Source of the DNA: a virus
Lineage: Duplodnaviria; Heunggongvirae; Uroviricota; Caudoviricetes
Length of the DNA: 15,163 bases
IMG/VR virus record: IMGVR_UViG_3300015156_000025
Span: 1 to 15,163 of that record
Direction: 5' to 3' (one strand)
Shown here: positions 43 to 15,163 of the stretch, one piece after another
How the letters are laid out: each line of letters starts with the position of its first letter
Position numbering within the stretch: the stretch's first letter is position 1
The notes under the pieces: generated by a model
Database searches by the model: none
What the model was told of the DNA's origin: nothing
Seen by the model: the letters and a program-made list of their open reading frames with translations, nothing else
Made by a program: the position numbers and the translations under genes

Positions 43-118
<76 letters not shown>

Positions 119-488: not shown

Positions 489-1031
489 TTATTGGCTTTC
501 TCCGCATAACGCTAATTTCATTGGTATATACAGAATGTGTTCAGCAACACCCAACCATGCATCAATGCGATTTCTGCAAGTTTTCAAGCTCCAGCCAGGG
601 CGATACTTATTTAACTGTTGTGCCATTTTCAGCTTACTCATCCCCCGCCCTTCATATCTTTGTCGGAGGATAAAAATCAATCCTGGGTGTTCTGCCAGCA
701 CTTCACTAATCACACGATCAATGCATAACGCCTCTGCATCATTACAATGCACCAGCCAGCTTTTTTGCTTACCGTTGATCATATCCCGCAAAAAAGCCTC
801 AAGTTCAGGTTTGTCCAGACCTGCTTTTTTCATCCTCCGGAGCGCCTCGTTAATTGCCGTTTTTGTCAGCTTTTTAGAGGTCAGCAACTGGTTGAACATA
901 TTTCCCGTCTTACCGCCGCCAATATACGACCAGCGCCCCCACATGCGCAGTTTGCCCTGAATCCAGACACTTTCCAGCGTGGCGAGACGAAGGTGTTCTC
1001 CGCTTTTTCCTGTATTCGTTGGGTAAATCAC
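489..1031 (-). CDS. Q-family late-gene antiterminator (phage 82/21 QuuD-like class), probable GTG start
   Basis: Supplied ORF 489..1151 contains the motif IQGKLRMWGRW and a later cysteine/acidic segment HCNDAEALCID, which parallel what I recall of DLP12 QuuD (IQMVLERWGAWA; CCDDDAMIICG). A GTG at 1029..1031 overlaps the TGA of the upstream gene and is preceded by AGGAGG. The ATG at 1151 would overlap the upstream gene by 124 nt in another frame. Confidence 0.65.
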   Translation of the reverse strand: MIYPTNTGKSGEHLRLATLESVWIQGKLRMWGRWSYIGGGKTGNMFNQLLTSKKLTKTAINEALRRMKKAGLDKPELEAFLRDMINGKQKSWLVHCNDAEALCIDRVISEVLAEHPGLIFILRQRYEGRGMSKLKMAQQLNKYRPGWSLKTCRNRIDAWLGVAEHILYIPMKLALCGESQ

Positions 1032-1318
1032 AAATATCCCTCCTTTCTCCAGATTTCTTGTGTGCGAAAAACACCTTCTGCATGCATCAGGCGCAATTCT
1101 TCTTTGGTGTAATCGCTGGTTTTTACCCGCCCGTCGATTAAATCGTGGCATGAGCTACAGGCAATTGCCGCCTGCATATCGTGTGGTTTTGTCGCTGTTC
1201 CACACGTCCCCGCCAGCCTGTAATGCGCCAGCACAGAAGTTTCGGGATTGTGATTGCAGTAGCCAGGAATTCTGACGGTGCACATCTGCCCCCGCGCCGC
1301 TTTACGTAAATCCACCAT
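1028..1318 (-). CDS. ybcO: YbcO-like protein (DUF1364, putative nuclease of lambdoid nin regions)
   Basis: 96-aa ORF; MVDLRKAARGQMCTVRIPGYCNHNPETSVLAH...IACSSCHD matches what I recall of DLP12 YbcO (ADLRKAARG..C.VRIPG.CN.NPETSVLAH..IACS.CHD). Its ATG overlaps the upstream stop (TAATG). Confidence 0.8.
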   Translation of the reverse strand: MVDLRKAARGQMCTVRIPGYCNHNPETSVLAHYRLAGTCGTATKPHDMQAAIACSSCHDLIDGRVKTSDYTKEELRLMHAEGVFRTQEIWRKEGYL

Positions 1319-2401: not shown

Positions 2402-2557
2402 TTACTCCTCAGGTTCGTAAGCTGTGAAGACAGCGACCTCCGTCTGGCCGGTTCGGATTCGTACCTCGCAGAGGTCTTTCCTCGTTACCAGTGCCGTCAC
2501 TATGACGGTTAAACAGATGACGATAAGGGCGATTAACATCGCCTTTTGCTGCTTCAT
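2402..2557 (-). CDS. hokD: Hok/Gef-family membrane toxin, hokD (relF)-like, 51 aa
   Basis: MKQQKAMLIALIVICLTVIVTALVTRKDLCEVRIRTGQTEVAVFTAYEPEE has the Hok hydrophobic helix and the conserved C-E-V/I-R core. ATG at 2555..2557 is preceded by AAGGAG at 9-nt spacing. The supplied 70-aa ORF is an in-frame upstream extension. Confidence 0.85.
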   Translation of the reverse strand: MKQQKAMLIALIVICLTVIVTALVTRKDLCEVRIRTGQTEVAVFTAYEPEE

Positions 2558-2910
2558 AGCCTGCTTCTCCTTGCCTTTCGGCACGTAAGAGGCTAACCTA
2601 CATGTGTTCAGCATGGATTGAGCCTCAGATTAATGTTAAGCGTCTTGCAGGACGCGTAATGTTAACTGGGGCTTTTCTCTATCTGCCTTTTGGTGTTCAT
2701 GCCTGAGACAGATAGCCTCAAGCACCCGCAGCAATTCTACTTATGACGCAATTTAATGACAACAACTCTACAGCGGTAGTGTGTTTAACTATTGACATTG
2801 ATTAACTCATTATTCAAAATTTTTGCGTACGCATTAATGATTTTGTGTCGTTGTTGTGATGGTAAAAAAATCACAAACGATCTAACAATAACATAGGTGA
2901 TATTTTCAAT

Positions 2911-4053
2911 ATGGAAATTAAGCAAGTTATCGTTCATGAACTAATTAAAGAAGCAAAAAAGGATTTTGATTTTTCTAAGCCGTATCAGCTTAGATCCACT
3001 CCTCTCGATAAAACCAATCCAATTGTTATAAAACTTATTCAAGACATTTCATCTTTATATGGAACCAAAGGCAATTCTGCACATTATGGCGTTTTTAAAG
3101 AGGAGAAAACAGAACAAGGGCCTGTGCCATCAATATTTGAAGAGTATTCTCAGTCAGAGGATAACATTAATGAAAAGTTTGTGCCTTTTTCTATTGAAGT
3201 GATGAAGCAACTTGTAAAAAAAGCCAAAGAAGAACCTTGGTCATCTGGTGGTTTTATTGTGTTTTGTGACTATATTGTAAATAACAATAAATTCTTTTTA
3301 ATTGCAATGATTAAAAAGAAAAATGGTGTTACTATCAGCAACAAACTCGAACCTGAAGAAATGATCCATTTGGATCTATCCAAAATACACCAAGCAGCAA
3401 GAATAAATTTCAATCTCTACCAACAATATAAAACTGCTGATGAGTCTGAAAAAATTGACTTAAGTTATCTAAGTTTCGTAAGTAAAGGAGTGGGTCAATC
3501 CACATCAGCATATTTTATTGCAGCAATAGGATGCGACAAATCACTTGCAGCAGCAAAAGCCACAAAAAAACTACCAACTGTCGCAAAACAATTTTTTAAC
3601 CAAAAACCAGAACTTAAAGCATGTGCCAATAGATTTAAATATGACGTTATTGCATATTTAGACACACAAGCAGCTAAAAATTTGTCAGCCCGATTGAGTG
3701 ATATTGAAGTAATTGCAGCACGTCACATGACAAATTTAGATGAGTCTACCAAAGAATCTTACACTCACGAATTAATTCTTTTTTTAAATAGTGAAAATGT
3801 GAGAATTCCAACTGAATTTGTTATCAGTAAACGGGCGTTGAAAGACATTAAAAACATCACCTTTAAGACTGATGAGATTGGATTTAATTTTGACAAGTCT
3901 CTCCTTGGAGTGACAGCTGATGATGATGTGTGGTACGATGAAACAACTGGAAGATTATCATTTACAAACTTACCAGCTGAATTTAAGGCTAAACTAAGCG
4001 CTGTGGTAAAAGAAAATTTAAAACTAAGGGATAGTGGAAAAGAAAATGGCTAA
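2911..4053 (+). CDS. Divergent nucleoid-associated protein homologue (YejK/NdpA family), 380 aa
   Basis: Motifs in the supplied translation parallel what I recall of E. coli YejK: QVIVHELIK (QIALHQLIK), AHYGVFKEE (KAYGLFSEE), SGGFIVFCDY (DGGFVLFCHY), YLSFVSKGVGQ (YLTFLKGRVGR). AGGTGA lies 10 nt upstream of the ATG. Confidence 0.7.
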   Translation: MEIKQVIVHELIKEAKKDFDFSKPYQLRSTPLDKTNPIVIKLIQDISSLYGTKGNSAHYGVFKEEKTEQGPVPSIFEEYSQSEDNINEKFVPFSIEVMKQLVKKAKEEPWSSGGFIVFCDYIVNNNKFFLIAMIKKKNGVTISNKLEPEEMIHLDLSKIHQAARINFNLYQQYKTADESEKIDLSYLSFVSKGVGQSTSAYFIAAIGCDKSLAAAKATKKLPTVAKQFFNQKPELKACANRFKYDVIAYLDTQAAKNLSARLSDIEVIAARHMTNLDESTKESYTHELILFLNSENVRIPTEFVISKRALKDIKNITFKTDEIGFNFDKSLLGVTADDDVWYDETTGRLSFTNLPAEFKAKLSAVVKENLKLRDSGKENG

Positions 4054-5266
4054 TTTATCAACGGTTGTAGATTTTTATAGAGCATCATCGAAGCCCCAAT
4101 TCGACGGACGTTCTTTTTCTGCAACTGTTGAAATAAATAATAACAATCAACGTTTGGTAAACTTGTTAGTAAATTCACATAAAGCCTACGGTTATTTTGA
4201 AGATGTTGATATTAATAATGAGTTCATTGACGAAGACGATTTAAAATCACACCCAATTAAAATTGGAGATAAATTCTCATACACTTACATATCCCCTAAA
4301 AATGGAGCAGAACGTTTCTATAACTCAATTCAAGAGTTCCTTTGTATAAACTCACTCAAGAAAGGTGTAATTCCTAAAGAGTATTACATAATCGATGAGG
4401 ATTTTCATCCGTCTGATTCAAGTAAACCGGACGAAATTATAAAAATCGAGAAAATTTGTGCAATTATTTCTTCCCTGGCTGAGATTGCGCACTTTCACGA
4501 TACAAAATCGGAATCTTCAAATTATCGTTTAGTTTTCGTGAAAGATTCTGACGCAAAATCAACATCTATTATTTTAGAAACGTGCATTACACCTAAGATG
4601 CTCAATATAAATGACATTGATGATGCTATCATCAAGAGTCTTTTAGATGTAAAAAACGCCCAAATCCCCCATCAAGCAGAAAAAACAGGTATTTTCAGGA
4701 ATACCATAGTGGAGTTTATTCTCGATAACAAATATGATTTTGAAAACCTAATTTGCCATTGGGATAAATTTGTAAAGCTATTTGAAAATAATTTATCCAC
4801 GTATATGAGTGGTTTTTCATTCCATAAGGCACGAAAAGAAATTGCGAAGTCTGAAGCAGAGTTTGCTGAAAAAATCTCAAAACTTATTACTGATTTGACG
4901 ACAAAAGTATTATCAATCCCTGTGTCTTTACTGGCATCCTTCGGGATTATAAAACTAACATCAAGATCTGAAATGTTACTCGTTTTATTAGGTGTATTGT
5001 TAAGCTCACTTATTTTATATATGGTATTACTCAATCAGGATAAACAATTAAAACATATTTACCATGCTAAAGATATAGCATTTATGCCTTTTCTAAAAAA
5101 CAATGAAAATTATCCAGAAGACCTTAAGAAGGACATTAATGAGGCTTTATATGAACTATCAAAGAGCCAAACCAAATGTGATAATACAATAAAGTTATTT
5201 ATGTATTTGGCTTGGCTACCAAGTTCTATTGCAGCAGGAATATTTCTTGCGAAGATTTTTATTTAG
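4046..5266 (+). CDS. Hypothetical protein with large soluble N-terminal region and C-terminal 2-3 hydrophobic helices (candidate membrane effector)
   Basis: ATG at 4046 overlaps the upstream stop (ATGGCTAA); a GTG at 4034 is the alternative start. Hydrophobic runs VLSIPVSLLASFGIIKL, MLLVLLGVLLSSLILYMVLL and IKLFMYLAWLPSSIAAGIFLAKIFI lie in the last ~120 residues. I recognise no domain in the N-terminal part. Confidence 0.7.
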   Translation: MANLSTVVDFYRASSKPQFDGRSFSATVEINNNNQRLVNLLVNSHKAYGYFEDVDINNEFIDEDDLKSHPIKIGDKFSYTYISPKNGAERFYNSIQEFLCINSLKKGVIPKEYYIIDEDFHPSDSSKPDEIIKIEKICAIISSLAEIAHFHDTKSESSNYRLVFVKDSDAKSTSIILETCITPKMLNINDIDDAIIKSLLDVKNAQIPHQAEKTGIFRNTIVEFILDNKYDFENLICHWDKFVKLFENNLSTYMSGFSFHKARKEIAKSEAEFAEKISKLITDLTTKVLSIPVSLLASFGIIKLTSRSEMLLVLLGVLLSSLILYMVLLNQDKQLKHIYHAKDIAFMPFLKNNENYPEDLKKDINEALYELSKSQTKCDNTIKLFMYLAWLPSSIAAGIFLAKIFI

Positions 5267-5275
5267 CTCTAACAG

Positions 5276-5791
5276 TTAGAGCATTAATACTCCCTCCAAT
5301 ACTCCCATCACTGCTTGTATTTTTTTTCTAATAGTCCCATCCGCACATTTCTTTCTTTTTGCGATCTTTCTCAAAGAAACGCCTATTACAAAGTGGGCAA
5401 CAATTAACTCATATTCATCTATTTTATATTGTCTGAGTCTCAATATCCACTCATCAATCACTCGCCCTTCATCATCGCTGCTCTGGCGACGCAATTTTTT
5501 ACCATGAGGCACAACATCTTTATATTTATCAGCCACTTGCTGCCAGTTGATAGAACTATTTCCAGCTACAGCCCAAGCTCCCCAACAGTCCAAAATATCA
5601 TATATATTAGCATTGCTATCCACCTGTTTTTTATATTCTTTTTTGAAGCGAGCAAGAAGCATCCTGGCCATCGTTATTATTTCTATACTTGTAACTGATT
5701 CATAAGCATCAGGAGAAATAATCCTCCCATCACTTAATGCCCTTTCACTAAGATTTGCTATTTCCAATAATCGTTCTTTAGTTATTTCCAT
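5276..5791 (-). CDS. Second Q-family antiterminator paralogue with about 60-aa N-terminal extension
   Basis: IYDILDCWGAWAVAG and C-terminal CADGTIRKKIQAVMGVLEGVLML parallel what I recall of QuuD (ERWGAWA...CCSDGYIGKRLQKAEGIIEGMLMAL). ATG at 5789..5791 has GGTGGAG 6 nt upstream; the supplied 5803 start is a GTG. Confidence 0.6.
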   Translation of the reverse strand: MEITKERLLEIANLSERALSDGRIISPDAYESVTSIEIITMARMLLARFKKEYKKQVDSNANIYDILDCWGAWAVAGNSSINWQQVADKYKDVVPHGKKLRRQSSDDEGRVIDEWILRLRQYKIDEYELIVAHFVIGVSLRKIAKRKKCADGTIRKKIQAVMGVLEGVLML

Positions 5792-5951
5792 TATTATCTC
5801 CACCGCCCTTTCGGGCAGCCTCCTGATGATTTGAGGGTGCAGGAATTCCTCCGGTTAAGGACTCTATTTTATTCACAGTGCTGAATTTAATTATTCAGAT
5901 TTGGATTATGCTTTCTCTTTCACTTCACCAAGTTCCGATTGTTAATTTGGC

Positions 5952-7924: not shown

Positions 7925-9061
7925 TTACCCCCTGAAGCCTGGCGGGATCGCACTGTCCGGCAACGAGACGGTGTTAACCTGTCGGAGCAACGTCTCAGGC
8001 CGAACACCTTTCGGCGCGAACAGGCCCTGGTATTCATTGGCGATGCTGTGTCGAATCACCTGCTCAGGTGTAAAACCCTGCTGACGGAATTTTTCCAGTT
8101 CCCGTATCGCCCCGTTAGCGCCCTGCTCCGTTCGAATCGGTTTTCGCAATGCCTGTCTGAACCGGACCCACTCATGCCAGAGTGTTTCCGGCAACCAGTC
8201 GGGCAGATCAACAGACAACGGGTCAAATTTTTTCTGGCGAACAGCCCCACCGATAACCAGAATTCCCTGCTCGGTGTGCCTTGCGATATCACTGCGCCGC
8301 AAGACACATATCCCGGTTTCAACAGCACCGATTTTGAGCAGTGATTTCTGTCGCGGAGAATTTCGGTCAAGCTCGATCCCACACCGAACACCGTTCCTGT
8401 CAGTCACGACGATATCAATCCGCCCTCCGCAGCCGTCACCACGCTCTGGCACCGGATACTCACGACAGACATCCAGGCCAGCAGCCTGCAACGCAACCAC
8501 CGCAGAATTACAAAATTCCGCTGCAGTACCGCCAGATAATCTCCCCTCAAGCACTCCAGCCACAAAATCCCGGAACTCCCTTCCGGAAGGGAAGGGTTTG
8601 GGATGGGTTAGATCAGTATTTAGATCTTCCTCTTCCTCTTCCTCTTCCTCTGGTAACGCTTTTTGATCCGTTTGTGTAACGCCGACAGCGTTACCTTTTC
8701 GTTTCAGTTCACGTATTTTTGTAACTCGCTCGTTTGTAACCGCCCGTTTTTTAGAGCTTTTTCCGTTATGGCGTTCAAAGTTAGGTAGAGAAAGCCCAAC
8801 GTCATTTTCGACCAGCCATCCAACCTGAATTAACGCATCAGCAAAACCAGCCATAAAAGTGATGCGATCTATTGCACTTTTTGTAACGCCGCGAGTGTTA
8901 CAATCTGCATTACCGTCTATCATTTGTTGATCCGCCCATGCCCAGAAGCGAATAACCTTCCCTAATGCGGCATCTGGATCAATATTCAGAATCTCAGCAA
9001 GCCTGAATATTTCCGGCTTATCCGGCGTAATAACCTCTAGCTTTATCCAGTTTGAAGCCAT
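7925..9061 (-). CDS. ydaU: Phage replication initiation protein, YdaU/DUF1376-like, with poly-Glu linker and extra central domain
   Basis: 378-aa ORF immediately upstream of the DnaC-like gene; AGGTGA 6 nt before the ATG. N-terminal part (MASNWIKLEVITPDKPEIFRLAEILN...) reads as the phage replication-protein N-terminal fold by recollection. Confidence 0.7.
   Translation of the reverse strand: MASNWIKLEVITPDKPEIFRLAEILNIDPDAALGKVIRFWAWADQQMIDGNADCNTRGVTKSAIDRITFMAGFADALIQVGWLVENDVGLSLPNFERHNGKSSKKRAVTNERVTKIRELKRKGNAVGVTQTDQKALPEEEEEEEEDLNTDLTHPKPFPSGREFRDFVAGVLEGRLSGGTAAEFCNSAVVALQAAGLDVCREYPVPERGDGCGGRIDIVVTDRNGVRCGIELDRNSPRQKSLLKIGAVETGICVLRRSDIARHTEQGILVIGGAVRQKKFDPLSVDLPDWLPETLWHEWVRFRQALRKPIRTEQGANGAIRELEKFRQQGFTPEQVIRHSIANEYQGLFAPKGVRPETLLRQVNTVSLPDSAIPPGFRG
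8625..8650 (-). repeat. Hexanucleotide repeat (TCTTCC)x4 encoding an E8 tract in the ydaU-like protein
   Basis: tcttcctcttcctcttcctcttcctc on the plus strand; translates as PEEEEEEEED on the minus strand. Confidence 0.9.
8676..8694. repeat. Iteron-like inverted repeat GTAACGC-n5-GCGTTAC inside the ydaU-like gene
   Basis: gtaacgc cgaca gcgttac; related half-sites at 8653..8660 (gtaacgct), 8721..8729 and 8737..8745 in a T-rich stretch. Confidence 0.45.
8882..8902. repeat. Iteron-like inverted repeat TGTAAC-n9-GTTACA inside the ydaU-like gene
   Basis: tgtaac gccgcgagt gttaca; shares the TGTAACGC core with the sites at 8676 and 9074. Confidence 0.4.
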
Positions 9062-10798: not shown

Positions 10799-10996
10799 TC
10801 CATTATTTGGATTAATTCAATATTCTCGCTGTAGGTGTATAGCCGAGGCCACCAAAGCCCGGAGGTGGTGAAATAAAACCGGGCGCAACACGAAGGCGCA
10901 TTTCCGATATCCATAAAGAGTCGGTTTTGTCTGTTAAATTTAAATGGTGGGAGTGCGCCTCCGGTTGTAAATAACGACATTGCTGTGTGTAGTCTT

Positions 10997-11044
10997 GGCG
11001 GCATCAGTTTTTTCTTGAAGTTCGGCTGATGTCCGCCCCTTTTT
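10997..11044 (+). terminator. Terminator-like long hairpin followed by a T-run
   Basis: GGCGGCATCAG (10997..11007) pairs with CTGATGtCCGCC (11026..11037) with one bulge, followed by CCTTTTT. Confidence 0.4.
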
Positions 11045-11209
11045 AAAGTGAATTTTGTGATGCGGTGAATGCGGCTAAGCGCACGCGGAACAGTTAAAAC
11101 CATCAGTGTTATGGGTGGATTATCCGGCGTTAATTGTTAACTGGTTAACGTCACCTGGAGGCACCAGGCACCGCATCAACAAAGTTCATTTGTAAAAATG
11201 GAGATAATT

Positions 11210-11431
11210 ATGATTGCACATCACTTCGGAACTGATGAAATACCACGTCAGTGTGTGACTCCTGGTGATTATGTTCTTCATAACGGCCGGACATATATTG
11301 CCTCGGCAAACAATATTAAAAAGCGAAAACTTTATATTCGTAACCTGACCACAAAAACATGCATTACTGACTGCATGATTAAAGTCTTCCTCGGTCGTGA
11401 TGGTTTACCTGTAAAGGCGGAGTCATGGTAA
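11210..11431 (+). CDS. kilR: KilR-like FtsZ inhibitor (Rac kil), 73 aa
   Basis: [49 protein letters not shown]...; GGAG 6 nt before the ATG at 11210. Size and position match K-12 KilR as I recall it. Confidence 0.8.
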
Positions 11432-11601
11432 TGACTAAGAAAATAAAATGTGCTTATCACCTTTGCAATAAAGAAATTGAAGAAAGCAAAATCATTACAA
11501 GACCACTTCATTTCATGCGTGGAGTTATACCAACGACGGAAATGAAAAAATATTGTAGTGAAAGTTGTGCCGAAAAAGACCAGATGGCACACGAACTTTA
11601 A
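11431..11601 (+). CDS. ydaE: YdaE-like small Cys-rich (zinc-binding) protein, 56 aa
   Basis: Hand translation: [56 protein letters not shown]. Start overlaps the kilR stop (TAATG). Not in the supplied ORF track. Confidence 0.7.
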   Translation: MTKKIKCAYHLCNKEIEESKIITRPLHFMRGVIPTTEMKKYCSESCAEKDQMAHEL

Positions 11602-11675
11602 TTAACTGACTATCCGAAACTGAATTTATGCCAGCAATGGCAGGGATTCGCTCAACCTTAATTAAGGAGAAAAAC

Positions 11676-11951
11676 ATGATTACCAGTTATGAAGCCACTG
11701 TTGTTACTACTGATGACATTGTTCACGAAGTCAGCCTGGAAGGAAAGCGTATTGGCTACGTGATTAAAACAGAAAATAAAGAAACCCCTTTCACTGTGGT
11801 TGATATCGACGGTCCATCAGGCAACGTTAAAACACTTAACGAAGGCGTCAAAAAAATGTGCCTGGTGCATATCGGAAAGAATCTGCCCGCAGAAAAAAAA
11901 GCCGAATTTCTGGCAACTCTGATTGCAATGAAATCAAAGGGTGAAATCTGA
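11676..11951 (+). CDS. racC: RacC-like protein, 91 aa
   Basis: ATG at 11676 preceded by AAGGAG; MITSYEATVVTTDDIVHEVSLEGKRIGYVIK... Lies directly upstream of recE as in Rac. Confidence 0.75.
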   Translation: MITSYEATVVTTDDIVHEVSLEGKRIGYVIKTENKETPFTVVDIDGPSGNVKTLNEGVKKMCLVHIGKNLPAEKKAEFLATLIAMKSKGEI

Positions 11952-11962
11952 AAAAAAAGAAA

Positions 11963-11981
11963 GCCTGCACACTGTGCAGGC
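11963..11981. other. Perfect 8-bp stem-loop between racC and recE
   Basis: GCCTGCAC act GTGCAGGC, preceded by an A-run on the plus strand, so the T-run is on the minus strand. Confidence 0.45.
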
Positions 11982-12051
11982 CTGAGTGAAGAACCTGGGA
12001 CATTTATTCATCACTCGCAGTAATTTTAATCTGAGTTGAGGTTAAAAAACA

Positions 12052-15000
12052 ATGAGCACAAAACCACTCTTCCTTTTACGGAAAGCGAAAAAATCATCCG
12101 GTGAACCTGACGTCGTCCTGTGGGCAAGCGACGATTTTGAATCAACCTGTGCCACTCTGGACTACCTGATCGTTAAGTCAGGTAAAAAACTGAGCAACTA
12201 TTTTAAAGCTGTTGCCACAAATTTTCCTGTCGTTAATGAACTTCCCCCTGAAGGTGAGATCGATTTTACCTGGTGTGAACGCTATCAACTCAGCAAAGAC
12301 TCCATGACCTGGGAACTAAAACCGGGAGCAGCGCCAGACGACGTTCACCATCAGGAGGATGCACAGGAAACCGAAGAACCGACGGGAGGCCAGGAAGAAA
12401 ACGCGCAGGCAGACGCCCACGAGGATTGCCAGGATTGCGAAGTCTCTGTAGCCACTTTGCGGTTCACACAGCGTCTTCTGCACATTTTTACGTATGCAGC
12501 CGGGGATCGAAAATACCTGCATCATGCCACCCGTGAACAACGCAAACACATTACTGCTCTTGAGATGGATCAGGAAAACAGCTATGTCCAGAATCTGCTG
12601 TTGGCCATACGCAGCATGGCAGAACCGACAACTCTGGATAATGCCGCCCTGCTCCGCCTGACTGATGCAATTAAGGCAGTGTTCTCTATCACGAAAAAAC
12701 ATCAGCCCTATGAATTTAAGAATTTCATTTCAGCCTGGCTGGATACCGAACACATTGATCGCGGTCTTCTGACAAAAGAATGGCGAAAAGGGAATCGTGT
12801 TTCACGCATCACTCGCACGGCTTCCGGTGCTAATGCTGGCGGCGGGAACCTCACCGATCGCGGCGAAGGTTTCGTCCACGATCTGACGTCACTGGCGCGC
12901 GATGTAGCCACTGGCGTACTGGCCCGTTCAATGGACGTGGACATCTATAACCTTCATCCGGCACACGCTAAACGCATTGAGGAAATTATCGCTGAAAATA
13001 AACCGCCCTTTTCTGTTTTCCGCGACAAATTCATCACCATGCCTGGCGGGCTGGATTATTCCCGCGCCATCGTGGTTGCGTCCGTGAAAGAAGCACCAAT
13101 AGGGATCGAGGTCATCCCCGCACACGTCACTGAATATCTGAACAAAGTACTGACTGAAACCGATCATGCCAACCCTGATCCGGAAATCGTGGATATTGCC
13201 TGCGGTCGTTCCTCTGCCCCGATGCCGCAGCGTGTAACAGAAGAAGAAAAACAGGATGATGAAGAAAAACTGCAACCATCTTGCGCAATGGCAGATGAAC
13301 AGGCAACGGCTGAAACAGTGGAACCGGATGCAACTGAACATCATCAGGACACGCAGCCGCTGGATGCTCAGTCACAGGTAAATTCTGTTGATGCGAAATA
13401 TCAGGAACTGCGGGCAGAACTCCATGAAGCCCGGAAAAACATTCCATCAAAAAATCCTGTCGATGCCGATAAATTACTTGCTGCATCACGTGGTGAATTT
13501 GTTGACGGAATTAGCGACCCGAACGATCCGAAATGGGTTAAGGGGATCCAGACTCGCGATTCTGTGTACCAGAACCAGCCAGAAACGGGAAAAACCAGCC
13601 CGGATGTGAAACAACCTGAGCCAGTAGTGCAACAGGAACCGGAAATAGTCTGCAATGCCTGCGGTCAGACTGGCGGAGATAACTGCCCTGACTGTGGGGC
13701 GGTGATGGGCGACGCAACATACCAGGAAACATTCGATGAAGAGAATCAGGTTGAAGCTAAGGAAAAAGATCCGGTGGAAATGGAAGGCGCTGAACATCCG
13801 CACAATGAGAATGCTGGCAGCGATCCGCATCGTGATTGCAGTGATGAAACTGGTGAAGCGTCAGCTCCTGTAGCAACTGAAATCATGTGGCCGTCATATT
13901 TCGAGCCTGGCCGCTATGAAAACCTCCCGAACGAGGTTTATCACTCCGCCAACGGAATAAGCAGCACGATGCTGAAGGATGCCCGTATCAGCCTGATGTA
14001 TTACCACGGACGGCACATTGCCGGAACTATTCCGAACGAGGAAAGTGATGCACTGCTGCGTGGGCGGATCATTCACAGCTATGTTCTGGAAACGGATAAA
14101 TTCGCTGATGAATATGCCATTCCGGTACCGGTTCCTGAATATGTGGTTACTACTTCTAGCGAACTGATCGCCATCATTAAAAAACACAATGCCAGTCTGC
14201 CAGCACTGATGACACCAGAGCAGATGAAAGAGTGGATCGAAAGCTACAACAGCACTCTTATACAGCCACTGTCTGTAAGTGCCGGGGCCGAAGAAACAGG
14301 CATCCTTTACGGTTCGCTTCCGGTGGAGTTTCGGCGTATTCCTGAGGGGGAAAAACACACAGCATCAGCAATGAAAGCCTGTATTAAAGAATACAACGCA
14401 AGCCTCCCTCCTCTGTTGAAAACCAGTGGAGCACGGGAGCAGCTTCTGGATCAAATTGAAACTGTAGACCCAGAACTGGCAAAAAAAGAACGTGCTAAAT
14501 CTTTGCCTTACAACATCAGTGGCACAAAAGAGCAATTAACCGAAATCGCACGGAAAATTCGCCCGGAACTGGTGACACTGGAGGACTGGCAAAAACGCCA
14601 GCAAGAAGAAAATGCCGGGAAAACGTTTATCAGTCCGGATATGTATGAACAGGCAAAAAATATTCACGCGGCACTGCAAAACAATACCGATGCAGCAAGG
14701 CTACTCAACCACCCGGATCGCAAATCTGAAATCAGCTATTTCGGGTTTGATGAAGAAACCGGGCTGGAAATCAGGGTCCGTCCTGATATCGAAATCCGGC
14801 TGCCATACGAAAGCATTTGCGCTGACGTGAAGTCAGTCAGCCTCGGTTATGTGCGACAGGAACGACTTAAAGATCGCCTGCACCGTGAAATTATTGAGCG
14901 TGATTATCACCTCAGCGCCGCAATGTATTGCGATGTGGCAAACCTGGACAAATTTTTCTGGATCTTCGTCAACAAAGATGCTGGCTATCACTGGGTGGTA

Positions 15001-15144
15001 GTCGTGGAAGCCTCGCAGGAACTCCTGGAACTTGGTCGACAGGAATATCGCCGGACGCTACGCCAGATAAACGAAGCCATGGAGACAAACAACTGGCCAG
15101 CACCGATTACCGAAAGTTATACAGATCGGAAGAGCGTCGTGTAG
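12052..15144 (+). CDS. recE: RecE-family exonuclease VIII, mosaic long variant (1030 aa)
   Basis: N-terminus [26 protein letters not shown] and the central region ([40 protein letters not shown]... through the CxxC...CxxC zinc-ribbon-like motif) match K-12 RecE as I recall it. The C-terminal nuclease region is divergent and longer. Confidence 0.9.
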
Positions 15145-15163
15145 GGAAAGAGTGTAGATCTCG

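What the first reader, a model, noticed from the sequence alone, without database searches (positions are those of the whole stretch)
12052..15144. Mosaic RecE: conserved core, divergent C-terminal nuclease region with a repeat-bearing insertion
The N-terminus and central region match K-12 RecE as I recall it, including the zinc-ribbon-like [16 protein letters not shown]. The C-terminal ~400 residues are divergent and contain a repeated motif ([24 protein letters not shown] at about aa 750-860) not in my recollection of K-12 RecE. That suggests a module swap or an inserted repeat domain in the exonuclease region. The window ends before recT.
Basis: partly seen in the sequence, partly recalled or inferred. 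Interest (0 to 1): 0.45.

Follow-up and report, generated by a model that had tools for sequence, protein, structure and literature searches.

The report
Gifsy-type RecE allele, end truncated
This is an ordinary, already catalogued variant of the prophage recombination nuclease RecE, in which the nuclease end of the protein (and, in complete genomes, its partner gene recT) has been exchanged for the type found in Salmonella Gifsy prophages; its apparent stop codon is an artefact of sequencing-adapter DNA at the end of the contig.

Summary
The mosaic is real but not new. The ORF 12052-15144 is a Rac-prophage recE. Residues 1-100 and 236-607 are about 91-95% identical in DNA to K-12 recE. From residue ~603 the nuclease domain is a different RecE-family module, 24-29% identical to K-12 and ~50% identical to Gifsy-1, HK225 and mEp237 RecE.

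The repeats are significant. They form a 174-residue helical subdomain (aa 688-861) that replaces the 34-residue rim loop of K-12 RecE. The subdomain is conserved down to 25% identity, and its copy number varies among homologues. The repeats weakly resemble SAP/helix-extension-helix motifs.

In complete genomes the nuclease module and a non-K-12 RecT are exchanged as one cassette. The module is in 190 of 5426 E. coli genomes, and a 99% identical copy is in phage Rac-SA53.

The last 41 bases of the window are Illumina adapter. The stop codon and the final residues RKSVV are therefore artefacts; real proteins are 1040-1048 aa. Interest is low.

The parts
12052..15122 (+). recE (exodeoxyribonuclease VIII), genuine sequence. 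It is cut off about 16 codons before its true stop by the end of the contig.
   Evidence: ORF. Pfam Exonuc_VIII at aa 2-182, E 9e-68, and PF12684 at aa 853-1017, E 2e-13. 97% identical over aa 1-1025 to the annotated 1040-aa recE of E. coli cq9.
12052..12353 (+). K-12-like N-terminal segment (aa 1-100).
   Evidence: blastn of window 10824-12353 against K-12 gives 91% identity. BLASTP.
12354..12756 (+). Second mosaic patch (aa 101-235). It is a divergent allele of the same Exonuc_VIII domain.
   Evidence: No nucleotide match to K-12. It still hits PF06630 positions 116-203 at E 3e-4. Present in 278 of 5426 E. coli genomes, sometimes in a different recE gene from the one carrying the C-terminal module.
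12757..13872 (+). K-12-like central region (aa 236-607), including the CxxC...CxxC motif at aa 534-549 (nt 13651-13698).
   Evidence: 95.3% DNA identity to K-12. Motif located.
13873..15122 (+). Gifsy-type RecE nuclease module (PD-(D/E)XK, PF12684).
14074..14076 (+). His675, the equivalent of K-12 RecE His652.
   Evidence: Invariant in alignments A2-A4. Role of His652 per PMC11611040.
14113..14634 (+). Helical repeat-bearing subdomain (aa 688-861). It takes the place of K-12 RecE residues 665-698.
   Evidence: Alignments. AF2 pLDDT is about 80-96 across it and it is all-helical. [quoted passage not shown]
14152..14271 (+). Repeat units A1 (aa 701-720) and A2 (aa 721-740): T-x-x-E-[LM]-x-x-x-I-x-x-[HY]-N-[AS]-[ST]-L.
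   Evidence: Self-alignment statistics. The Asn residues are nearly invariant across the family.
14359..14418 (+). Repeat unit A3 (aa 770-789).
   Evidence: A1 vs A3 scores 53 against a shuffle maximum of 36. A2 vs A3 scores 32-34.
14425..14484 (+). Repeat unit B1 (aa 792-811), SG-x-[RK]-EQL..., resembling helix 2 of a SAP motif.
   Evidence: B1 vs B2 scores 38. Pfam SAP hits in homologues.
14518..14577 (+). Repeat unit B2 (aa 823-842).
   Evidence: SAP_new25, E 0.029, on this copy. The profile hit to the MKL1 SAP domain 2KVU at E 0.08 aligns here.
14785..14832 (+). PD...DxK catalytic motif: D912, D925, K927.
   Evidence: Invariant in A2-A4. They align with K-12 RPD...DVK.
15123..15163 (.). 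Illumina adapter sequence, not biological. It supplies codons 1025-1030 and the stop codon at 15142-15144.
   Evidence: Exact 41-base match. Similarity to cq9 and Rac-SA53 stops at 15122. The adapter sequence is printed in PMC7303419.

Best explanation
The ORF is an intact but contig-truncated recE gene of a Rac-like prophage. It encodes a functional RecE-family 5'->3' dsDNA exonuclease.

It was built by recombination between prophage alleles. The N-terminal ~600 residues are K-12-like, except for one variant patch at aa 101-235. The nuclease domain belongs to the Gifsy-1/HK225/mEp237 lineage of RecE.

In complete genomes this nuclease domain is inherited as one cassette with a long (350-367 aa) RecT of the same lineage. 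That fits with exonuclease and annealase having to recognise each other (inference).

The nuclease core keeps the RecE fold and the His...PD...DxK active site, so it should resect the 5' strand and hand the 3' overhang to RecT (inferred from homology).

The repeat region is an all-helical subdomain of tandem helix-linker-helix units. It occupies the position of the K-12 rim loops at the mouth of the DNA channel. My preferred reading, at about 40% on its own, is that it is a SAP/HeH-like crown that captures duplex DNA ends.

The 1030-aa length and the stop codon come from untrimmed Illumina adapter.
For: Family and fold:
- Pfam PF06630 and PF12684 score far above their cut-offs.
- H675, D912, D925 and K927 are invariant across homologues down to 22% identity.

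Lineage:
- About 50% identity at 98% coverage to Gifsy-1 RecE and to the phage homologues.
- Gifsy recET can suppress recB recombination defects when derepressed (PMC3121763).

Cassette:
- The block replaced between cq9 and K-12 runs from recE codon ~607 to the end of recT.
- The cq9 RecT is PF03837 but shows no BLASTP similarity to K-12 RecT. It is ~49% identical to the RecT of Gifsy-1/2, HK225 and mEp237.
- The recE-recT junction is intact in 163 of 192 genomes that carry the module.
- RecT binds RecE but not lambda Exo (PMC11611040).

Insertion:
- The repeats are significant.
- They are conserved in stand-alone ~430-aa nucleases, and the number of units varies among homologues.
- The model is confident and helical there.
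- It replaces K-12 residues 665-698, the putative DNA-capture loops.
- SAP-family hits occur in 14 of 20 homologous segments.

Artefact:
-.
- The exact 1030-aa protein exists only on one 15163-bp JGI contig. Full-length members of its cluster are 1040-1048 aa.
Against: No activity data exist for this allele; function rests on homology.

recT itself is not in the window.

Against the DNA-capture idea:
- The insertion is acidic across the family (median net charge -9, pI 4.7; -3 in this copy).
- The SAP matches cover only half of the model (positions 19-35 of 37) and are mostly below the gathering score.
- In this copy the only hit is SAP_new25 at E 0.029.

The first 61 residues of the modelled segment have low confidence.
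Confidence: 0.85

Rival explanations
1. The repeat subdomain is a protein-docking platform rather than a DNA-binding element. It would recruit the cognate long RecT, whose C-terminal extension is absent from K-12 RecT, or a host protein such as SSB. It would thereby set partner specificity.
For: The insertion is acidic throughout the family. It is co-inherited with a distinct, longer RecT lineage. Annealase C-terminal domains are thought to bind the exonuclease partner (PMC11611040).
Against: It sits where K-12 RecE has its presumed DNA-capture loops. The B units carry the conserved G-x-[KR] start of SAP helix 2 and draw SAP hits.
Confidence: 0.25
2. The gene is a pseudogene or a naturally truncated recE, and the stop codon at 15142-15144 is real.
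For: The ORF as read is 10-18 residues shorter than its closest relatives.
Against: The divergence begins exactly where a 41-base perfect Illumina adapter match begins, and that match runs to the last base of the contig. There are no frameshifts or stops in the 1023 genuine codons.
Confidence: 0.02
3. The mosaic is an assembly chimera that joins reads from two different recE alleles in a mixed sample.
For: The contig comes from a JGI/IMG data set and carries untrimmed adapter. recE alleles share long near-identical stretches in which an assembler could switch.
Against: The same three-part arrangement occurs in single genes of 88 complete E. coli genomes, and cq9 is 98.3% identical over 99% of the gene.
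Confidence: 0.02
4. The repeated motifs are chance similarities in a low-complexity linker and have no structural meaning.
For: The units are short, and A1 vs A2 alone is not significant (p = 0.08).
Against: A1 vs A3 has z = 9.3 and B1 vs B2 has z = 6.3. The motif Asn, Leu-Pro and Gly residues are nearly invariant in homologues down to 25% identity. Unit number varies in register from 2-4 A units and 1-3 B units. AF2 confidence is high.
Confidence: 0.02

Closest known systems
E. coli K-12 Rac prophage RecE (exodeoxyribonuclease VIII, 866 aa; nuclease domain structure PDB 3H4R)
   Different: The nuclease domain is only 24-29% identical. A 174-residue repeat-bearing helical subdomain replaces the 34-residue loop at K-12 residues 665-698. 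There is a conserved C-terminal tail, ELNDFDxRRLEAL, which is absent from K-12 and cut off in this window. Residues 101-235 are a different allele. The partner RecT in complete genomes is of another lineage.
RecE of Salmonella prophages Gifsy-1/Gifsy-2 and of lambdoid phages HK225, mEp237 and PHB10
   Same: The nuclease module is collinear at ~50% identity over 98% of its length, including the repeat subdomain and the C-terminal tail. The partner RecT is likewise ~49% identical.
   Different: It is a different sub-lineage (50% identity). Here the module is fused to a K-12-type Rac N-terminal region.
recE of Escherichia phage Rac-SA53 (KU052037) and recE of E. coli cq9 (WP_064986939.1)
   Same: Essentially the same gene. 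The nuclease module is 99% identical in protein to Rac-SA53, and the whole gene is 97% identical in protein to cq9. Both are annotated exodeoxyribonuclease VIII and are followed by recT, ralR, xis, int and ttcA.
   Different: Those copies are complete (1048 and 1040 aa). The window copy is cut by the contig end and adapter.
SAP / helix-extension-helix DNA-binding motifs (Pfam PF02037, PF18953; for example the MKL1 SAP domain 2KVU and the FAN1 SAP domain next to a PD-(D/E)XK nuclease)
   Same: A helix, extended linker, helix pattern with a conserved G-x-[KR]-x-x-L start to helix 2. Weak Pfam SAP hits in most homologues. Association with a PD-(D/E)XK nuclease, as in FAN1.
   Different: Only half of the SAP model is matched. 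This copy is below threshold. The subdomain is acidic overall. It lies inside the nuclease fold rather than as a separate domain.

Membership tests
RecE-family exonuclease (exodeoxyribonuclease VIII) | N-terminal Exonuc_VIII domain (Pfam PF06630) | tested here: met
   228.5 bits against a cut-off of 25, at aa 2-182.
RecE-family exonuclease (exodeoxyribonuclease VIII) | C-terminal PD-(D/E)XK domain of the RecE type (Pfam PF12684) | tested here: met
   51-55 bits against a cut-off of 26, in two stretches split by the insertion.
RecE-family exonuclease (exodeoxyribonuclease VIII) | Active-site residues His...PD...DxK (K-12 His652, Asp748, Asp759, Lys761) | tested here: met
   H675, D912, D925 and K927 align with the K-12 residues and are invariant in 11-, 30- and 20-sequence alignments.
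RecE-family exonuclease (exodeoxyribonuclease VIII) | RecE nuclease fold | tested here: met
RecE-family exonuclease (exodeoxyribonuclease VIII) | A gene for a RecT-family annealase immediately downstream | tested here: inconclusive
   The window ends inside recE. In near-identical loci (cq9, Rac-SA53) recT follows directly, and the junction is intact in 163 of 192 E. coli genomes carrying the module.
RecE-family exonuclease (exodeoxyribonuclease VIII) | Processive 5'->3' dsDNA exonuclease activity and ring-shaped tetramer | not testable with these tools
   Needs biochemistry or a multimer model.
K-12 (Rac) allele of the RecE nuclease domain | High sequence identity across aa 606-866, with the short 665-698 loop | tested here: not met
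   29% identity over 133 aa by BLASTP, and 24% in the structural alignment. The loop is replaced by 174 residues.
Gifsy-1/HK225-type RecE nuclease module | Collinear similarity that includes the repeat subdomain and the cognate long RecT | tested here: met
   50% identity at 98% coverage. The insertion aligns unit for unit. The partner RecT is ~49% identical to Gifsy-1/2, HK225 and mEp237 RecT.
SAP / HeH motif (Pfam PF02037 and clan relatives) | Match to the SAP model at or above the gathering score | tested here: not met
   The window's own insertion shows no SAP hit at E <= 1. Its only hit is SAP_new25 at 14.4 bits against a cut-off of 26.3, E 0.029.
SAP / HeH motif (Pfam PF02037 and clan relatives) | Family-level similarity to SAP | tested here: inconclusive
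   14 of 20 homologous segments hit PF02037 (best E 1.5e-6). One exceeds the cut-off (26.3 vs 23.9 bits). Only model positions 19-35 of 37 are covered. The MKL1 SAP domain scores E 0.08 in a profile search of PDB sequences.
SAP / HeH motif (Pfam PF02037 and clan relatives) | Secondary structure of helix, extended linker, helix | tested here: met
   Model helices (full-length numbering) at 771-784 then 795-805, and at 807-814 then 826-836, each pair separated by a 10-11 residue non-helical linker.
SAP / HeH motif (Pfam PF02037 and clan relatives) | DNA binding | not testable with these tools
   Indirect only. The position equals the K-12 rim loops, but the net charge is negative.

The most novel reading that the evidence does not exclude
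The Gifsy-type RecE lineage carries, in place of the short disordered rim loops of K-12 RecE, a tandem array of SAP/helix-extension-helix-like units with variable copy number. In a tetramer this would form a crown of eight or more duplex-DNA-gripping motifs at the channel entrance. This would be an undescribed DNA-capture or processivity device in phage recombination exonucleases. It might make this lineage a better reagent for recombineering or linear-linear cloning than K-12 RecE.
Probability: 0.35. Interest if true: 0.35.

Novelty: already known. Interest (0 to 1): 0.15.

Why it matters
It matters little as a discovery. The allele is annotated as recE in hundreds of public E. coli genomes and in one deposited phage, and mosaic exchange of modules among lambdoid prophages is expected.

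Three points are of practical use:
1. The contig carries untrimmed adapter, which creates a false stop codon and a false 1030-aa protein that is already in a public protein collection.
2. The exchange unit is exactly 'nuclease domain plus recT'. This is natural evidence that the two must match, and anyone building recombineering pairs should take both from the same lineage.
3. The repeat subdomain sits where K-12 RecE has its unresolved DNA-capture loops and is predicted to be well ordered. Gifsy-type RecE may therefore be a better target for seeing how RecE engages DNA ends.

Tried and rejected
- Single-sequence AlphaFold of the C-terminal 421 residues gave a useless model (pLDDT 36.5). It was replaced by a 30-sequence alignment.
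- Pfam on the window's insertion alone gave only sub-threshold Stk19 and DUF7668 hits, which I regard as chance.
- In the profile search of PDB sequences the top hits were N-WASP WH2 repeats (E 2e-4). They share the 'GxRdaLLdQI' helix. I regard this as convergent short-helix similarity, not homology.
- PADLOC gave no defence-system match for RecE or for the two neighbouring unknown ORFs.
- Literature searches for Rac-SA53 and for RecE with SAP domains found nothing on this subdomain.
- Pseudogene, assembly chimera and chance repeats were considered and rejected (see rival explanations).

Full report
**What is at the coordinates**

The + strand carries one uninterrupted ORF, 12052-15144, of 1030 codons. 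Pfam places an Exonuc_VIII domain at aa 2-182 (E 9e-68) and a RecE-type PD-(D/E)XK domain (PF12684) at aa 853-1017 (E 2e-13). The only solved relative by sequence is the K-12 RecE nuclease domain, 3H4R. It matches weakly, in two pieces separated by about 150 residues.

**The end of the ORF is an artefact**

The last 41 bases of the window (15123-15163) are an exact match to AGATCGGAAGAGCGTCGTGTAGGGAAAGAGTGTAGATCTCG. This is the Illumina adapter sequence printed in many methods sections, for example PMC7303419. Similarity to the closest genomes stops at base 15122.

In E. coli cq9 the reading frame continues ...SYTDELNDFDLRRLEALSI*. The window instead reads ...SYTDRKSVV* from adapter. The exact 1030-aa sequence is on record only from one 15163-bp JGI/IMG contig. 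Its 90% cluster has 1104 members, and the full-length ones are 1040-1048 aa and named exodeoxyribonuclease VIII [Escherichia coli]. The gene is therefore cut by the contig end. It is neither complete nor a pseudogene.

**Mosaic structure**

| Segment | Residues | Window | Relation to K-12 recE |
|---|---|---|---|
| N-terminal | 1-100 | 12052-12353 | 91% DNA identity |
| Variant patch | 101-235 | 12354-12756 | no nucleotide match |
| Central | 236-607 | 12757-13872 | 95% DNA identity |
| Nuclease module | ~603 onward | 13873-15122 | no nucleotide match |

It still hits the Exonuc_VIII model, so it is an allelic variant and not foreign sequence.

Among 5426 complete E. coli genomes:
- the C-terminal module occurs in 190;
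- the 101-235 patch occurs in 278;
- both occur in one gene in 88.

In strain 06_3044 the two segments lie in different recE genes about 600 kb apart. The segments therefore assort independently, which is the usual pattern of lambdoid prophage mosaicism.

**The swap is a recE-nuclease-plus-recT cassette**

In cq9, which is 98.3% identical to the window across the gene, the block that differs from K-12 runs from recE codon ~607 to the end of recT. Identity of 97% resumes just before ralR.

The cq9 RecT (350 aa) belongs to Pfam RecT but has no BLASTP similarity to K-12 RecT (E 0.36). It is ~49% identical to the RecT of Gifsy-1, Gifsy-2, HK225 and mEp237. HK225, mEp237 and Gifsy-1 also carry a RecE nuclease module ~50% identical to this one.

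The recE-recT junction is intact in 163 of the 192 E. coli genomes that carry the module. The rest carry a diverged recT of the same long type.

RecT binds RecE but not lambda Exo (PMC11611040, citing Muyrers et al. 2000). Co-transfer of the nuclease domain with its own annealase is thus what one would expect; this last step is inference.

**The nuclease core**

H675, D912, D925 and K927 align with K-12 His652 and the PD...DxK residues. They are invariant in alignments reaching 22% identity. Gifsy recET genes suppress recB recombination defects when derepressed (PMC3121763), so this lineage is functional in vivo. Activity of this particular allele is inferred, not shown.

**The repeat-bearing insertion**

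Relative to K-12, residues 688-861 (174 aa) replace K-12 residues 665-698 (34 aa).

The repeats are real:
- aa 701-720 vs 770-789 scores 53, against a shuffled-sequence maximum of 36;
- aa 792-811 vs 823-842 scores 38;
- aa 725-744 vs 774-793 scores 32.

There are two kinds of unit:
- A units (three here): T-x-x-E-[LM]-x-x-x-I-x-x-[HY]-N-[AS]-[ST]-L-P;
- B units (two here): SG-x-[RK]-x-x-L...P-[DE].

The subdomain was not inserted in this allele. It is present unit for unit in relatives at 25-50% identity, including stand-alone ~430-aa nucleases. Unit number varies in register, with 2-4 A units and 1-3 B units. It is predicted with pLDDT of about 80-96 and is entirely helical, with helix, 10-residue linker, helix pairs.

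**What the insertion may do**

[quoted passage not shown] The subdomain therefore sits at the DNA entrance.

Evidence for a SAP/HeH-like, DNA-binding role:
- Fourteen of 20 homologous segments hit the Pfam SAP domain (best E 1.5e-6, one above the gathering score), and 12 hit SAP_new25.
- A profile of the segment finds the MKL1 SAP domain among PDB sequences at E 0.08.

Evidence against:
- The hits cover only the second helix of the SAP model.
- This copy is sub-threshold (E 0.029).
- The subdomain is acidic across the family (median net charge -9).

I give the SAP-like DNA-capture reading about 40% and a protein-docking role (RecT or a host factor) about 25%. Something else takes the remainder.

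**Comparison with the known, and novelty**

This is a member of the RecE family and is essentially the same gene as recE of phage Rac-SA53 (99% in the module) and of many E. coli genomes. It fails membership of the K-12 allele of the nuclease domain and passes membership of the Gifsy-type lineage. Nothing about the gene is new.

The only possibly undescribed aspect is the nature of the repeat subdomain. I found no literature on it. The library searched is limited.

**Verdict**

The module-swap interpretation is supported and extended to include recT. The feature is ordinary prophage mosaicism in an annotated gene. The apparent gene end is adapter contamination. Interest is 0.15.

Noticed in passing
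window 15123-15163: The last 41 bases of the contig are untrimmed Illumina adapter. They create a false stop codon and a false 1030-aa RecE, which is already present in a public protein collection (JGI/IMG).
   Followed up: yes
window 2552-2727 (-), with ORF 2402-2614 (-): Full-length Rfam match to the sok antitoxin RNA (118.9 bits against a gathering score of 59). It overlaps a 70-aa ORF, which suggests a hok/sok-type type I toxin-antitoxin locus in the prophage.
   Followed up: partly
window 2911-5266 (+): Two overlapping + strand ORFs sit between two Q-like antiterminator genes. One is a 380-aa NA37/YejK-family nucleoid-associated protein (E 4e-51). The other is a 410-aa protein with no Pfam or PADLOC hit. 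This could be an accessory or defence cargo module.
   Followed up: partly
window 43-118 (-): A tRNA-Thr (anticodon TGT) gene lies at the left edge of the window, next to the DUF1133/Q-like gene, as in the late regions of lambdoid phages.
   Followed up: partly
window 489-1151 (-) and 5276-5803 (-): Two separate genes have antiterminator-Q similarity: DUF1133 plus a weak Q hit, and Phage_antitermQ at E 5e-29. This suggests the region was assembled from more than one lambdoid late-control module.
   Followed up: no
L002 11075-11123 (cq9), and homologues in alignment A3: A conserved C-terminal tail, ELNDFDxRRLEAL[RS], follows the nuclease fold in Gifsy-type RecE. It is absent from K-12 RecE and is the part lost from the window. 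It could be a partner-binding peptide.
   Followed up: no
phage record PP818812.1 (hit H125): A record named Actinobacillus phage vB_Apl-pPE4 encodes a RecT 100% identical to that of E. coli cq9. That is unexpected for a Pasteurellaceae phage and may reflect E. coli prophage DNA in that record.
   Followed up: no
window 7925-9061 (-): The YdaU-position ORF is 378 aa with no Pfam hit. K-12 ydaU is 285 aa, and in cq9 the gene is annotated as broken into two pseudogene fragments.
   Followed up: no
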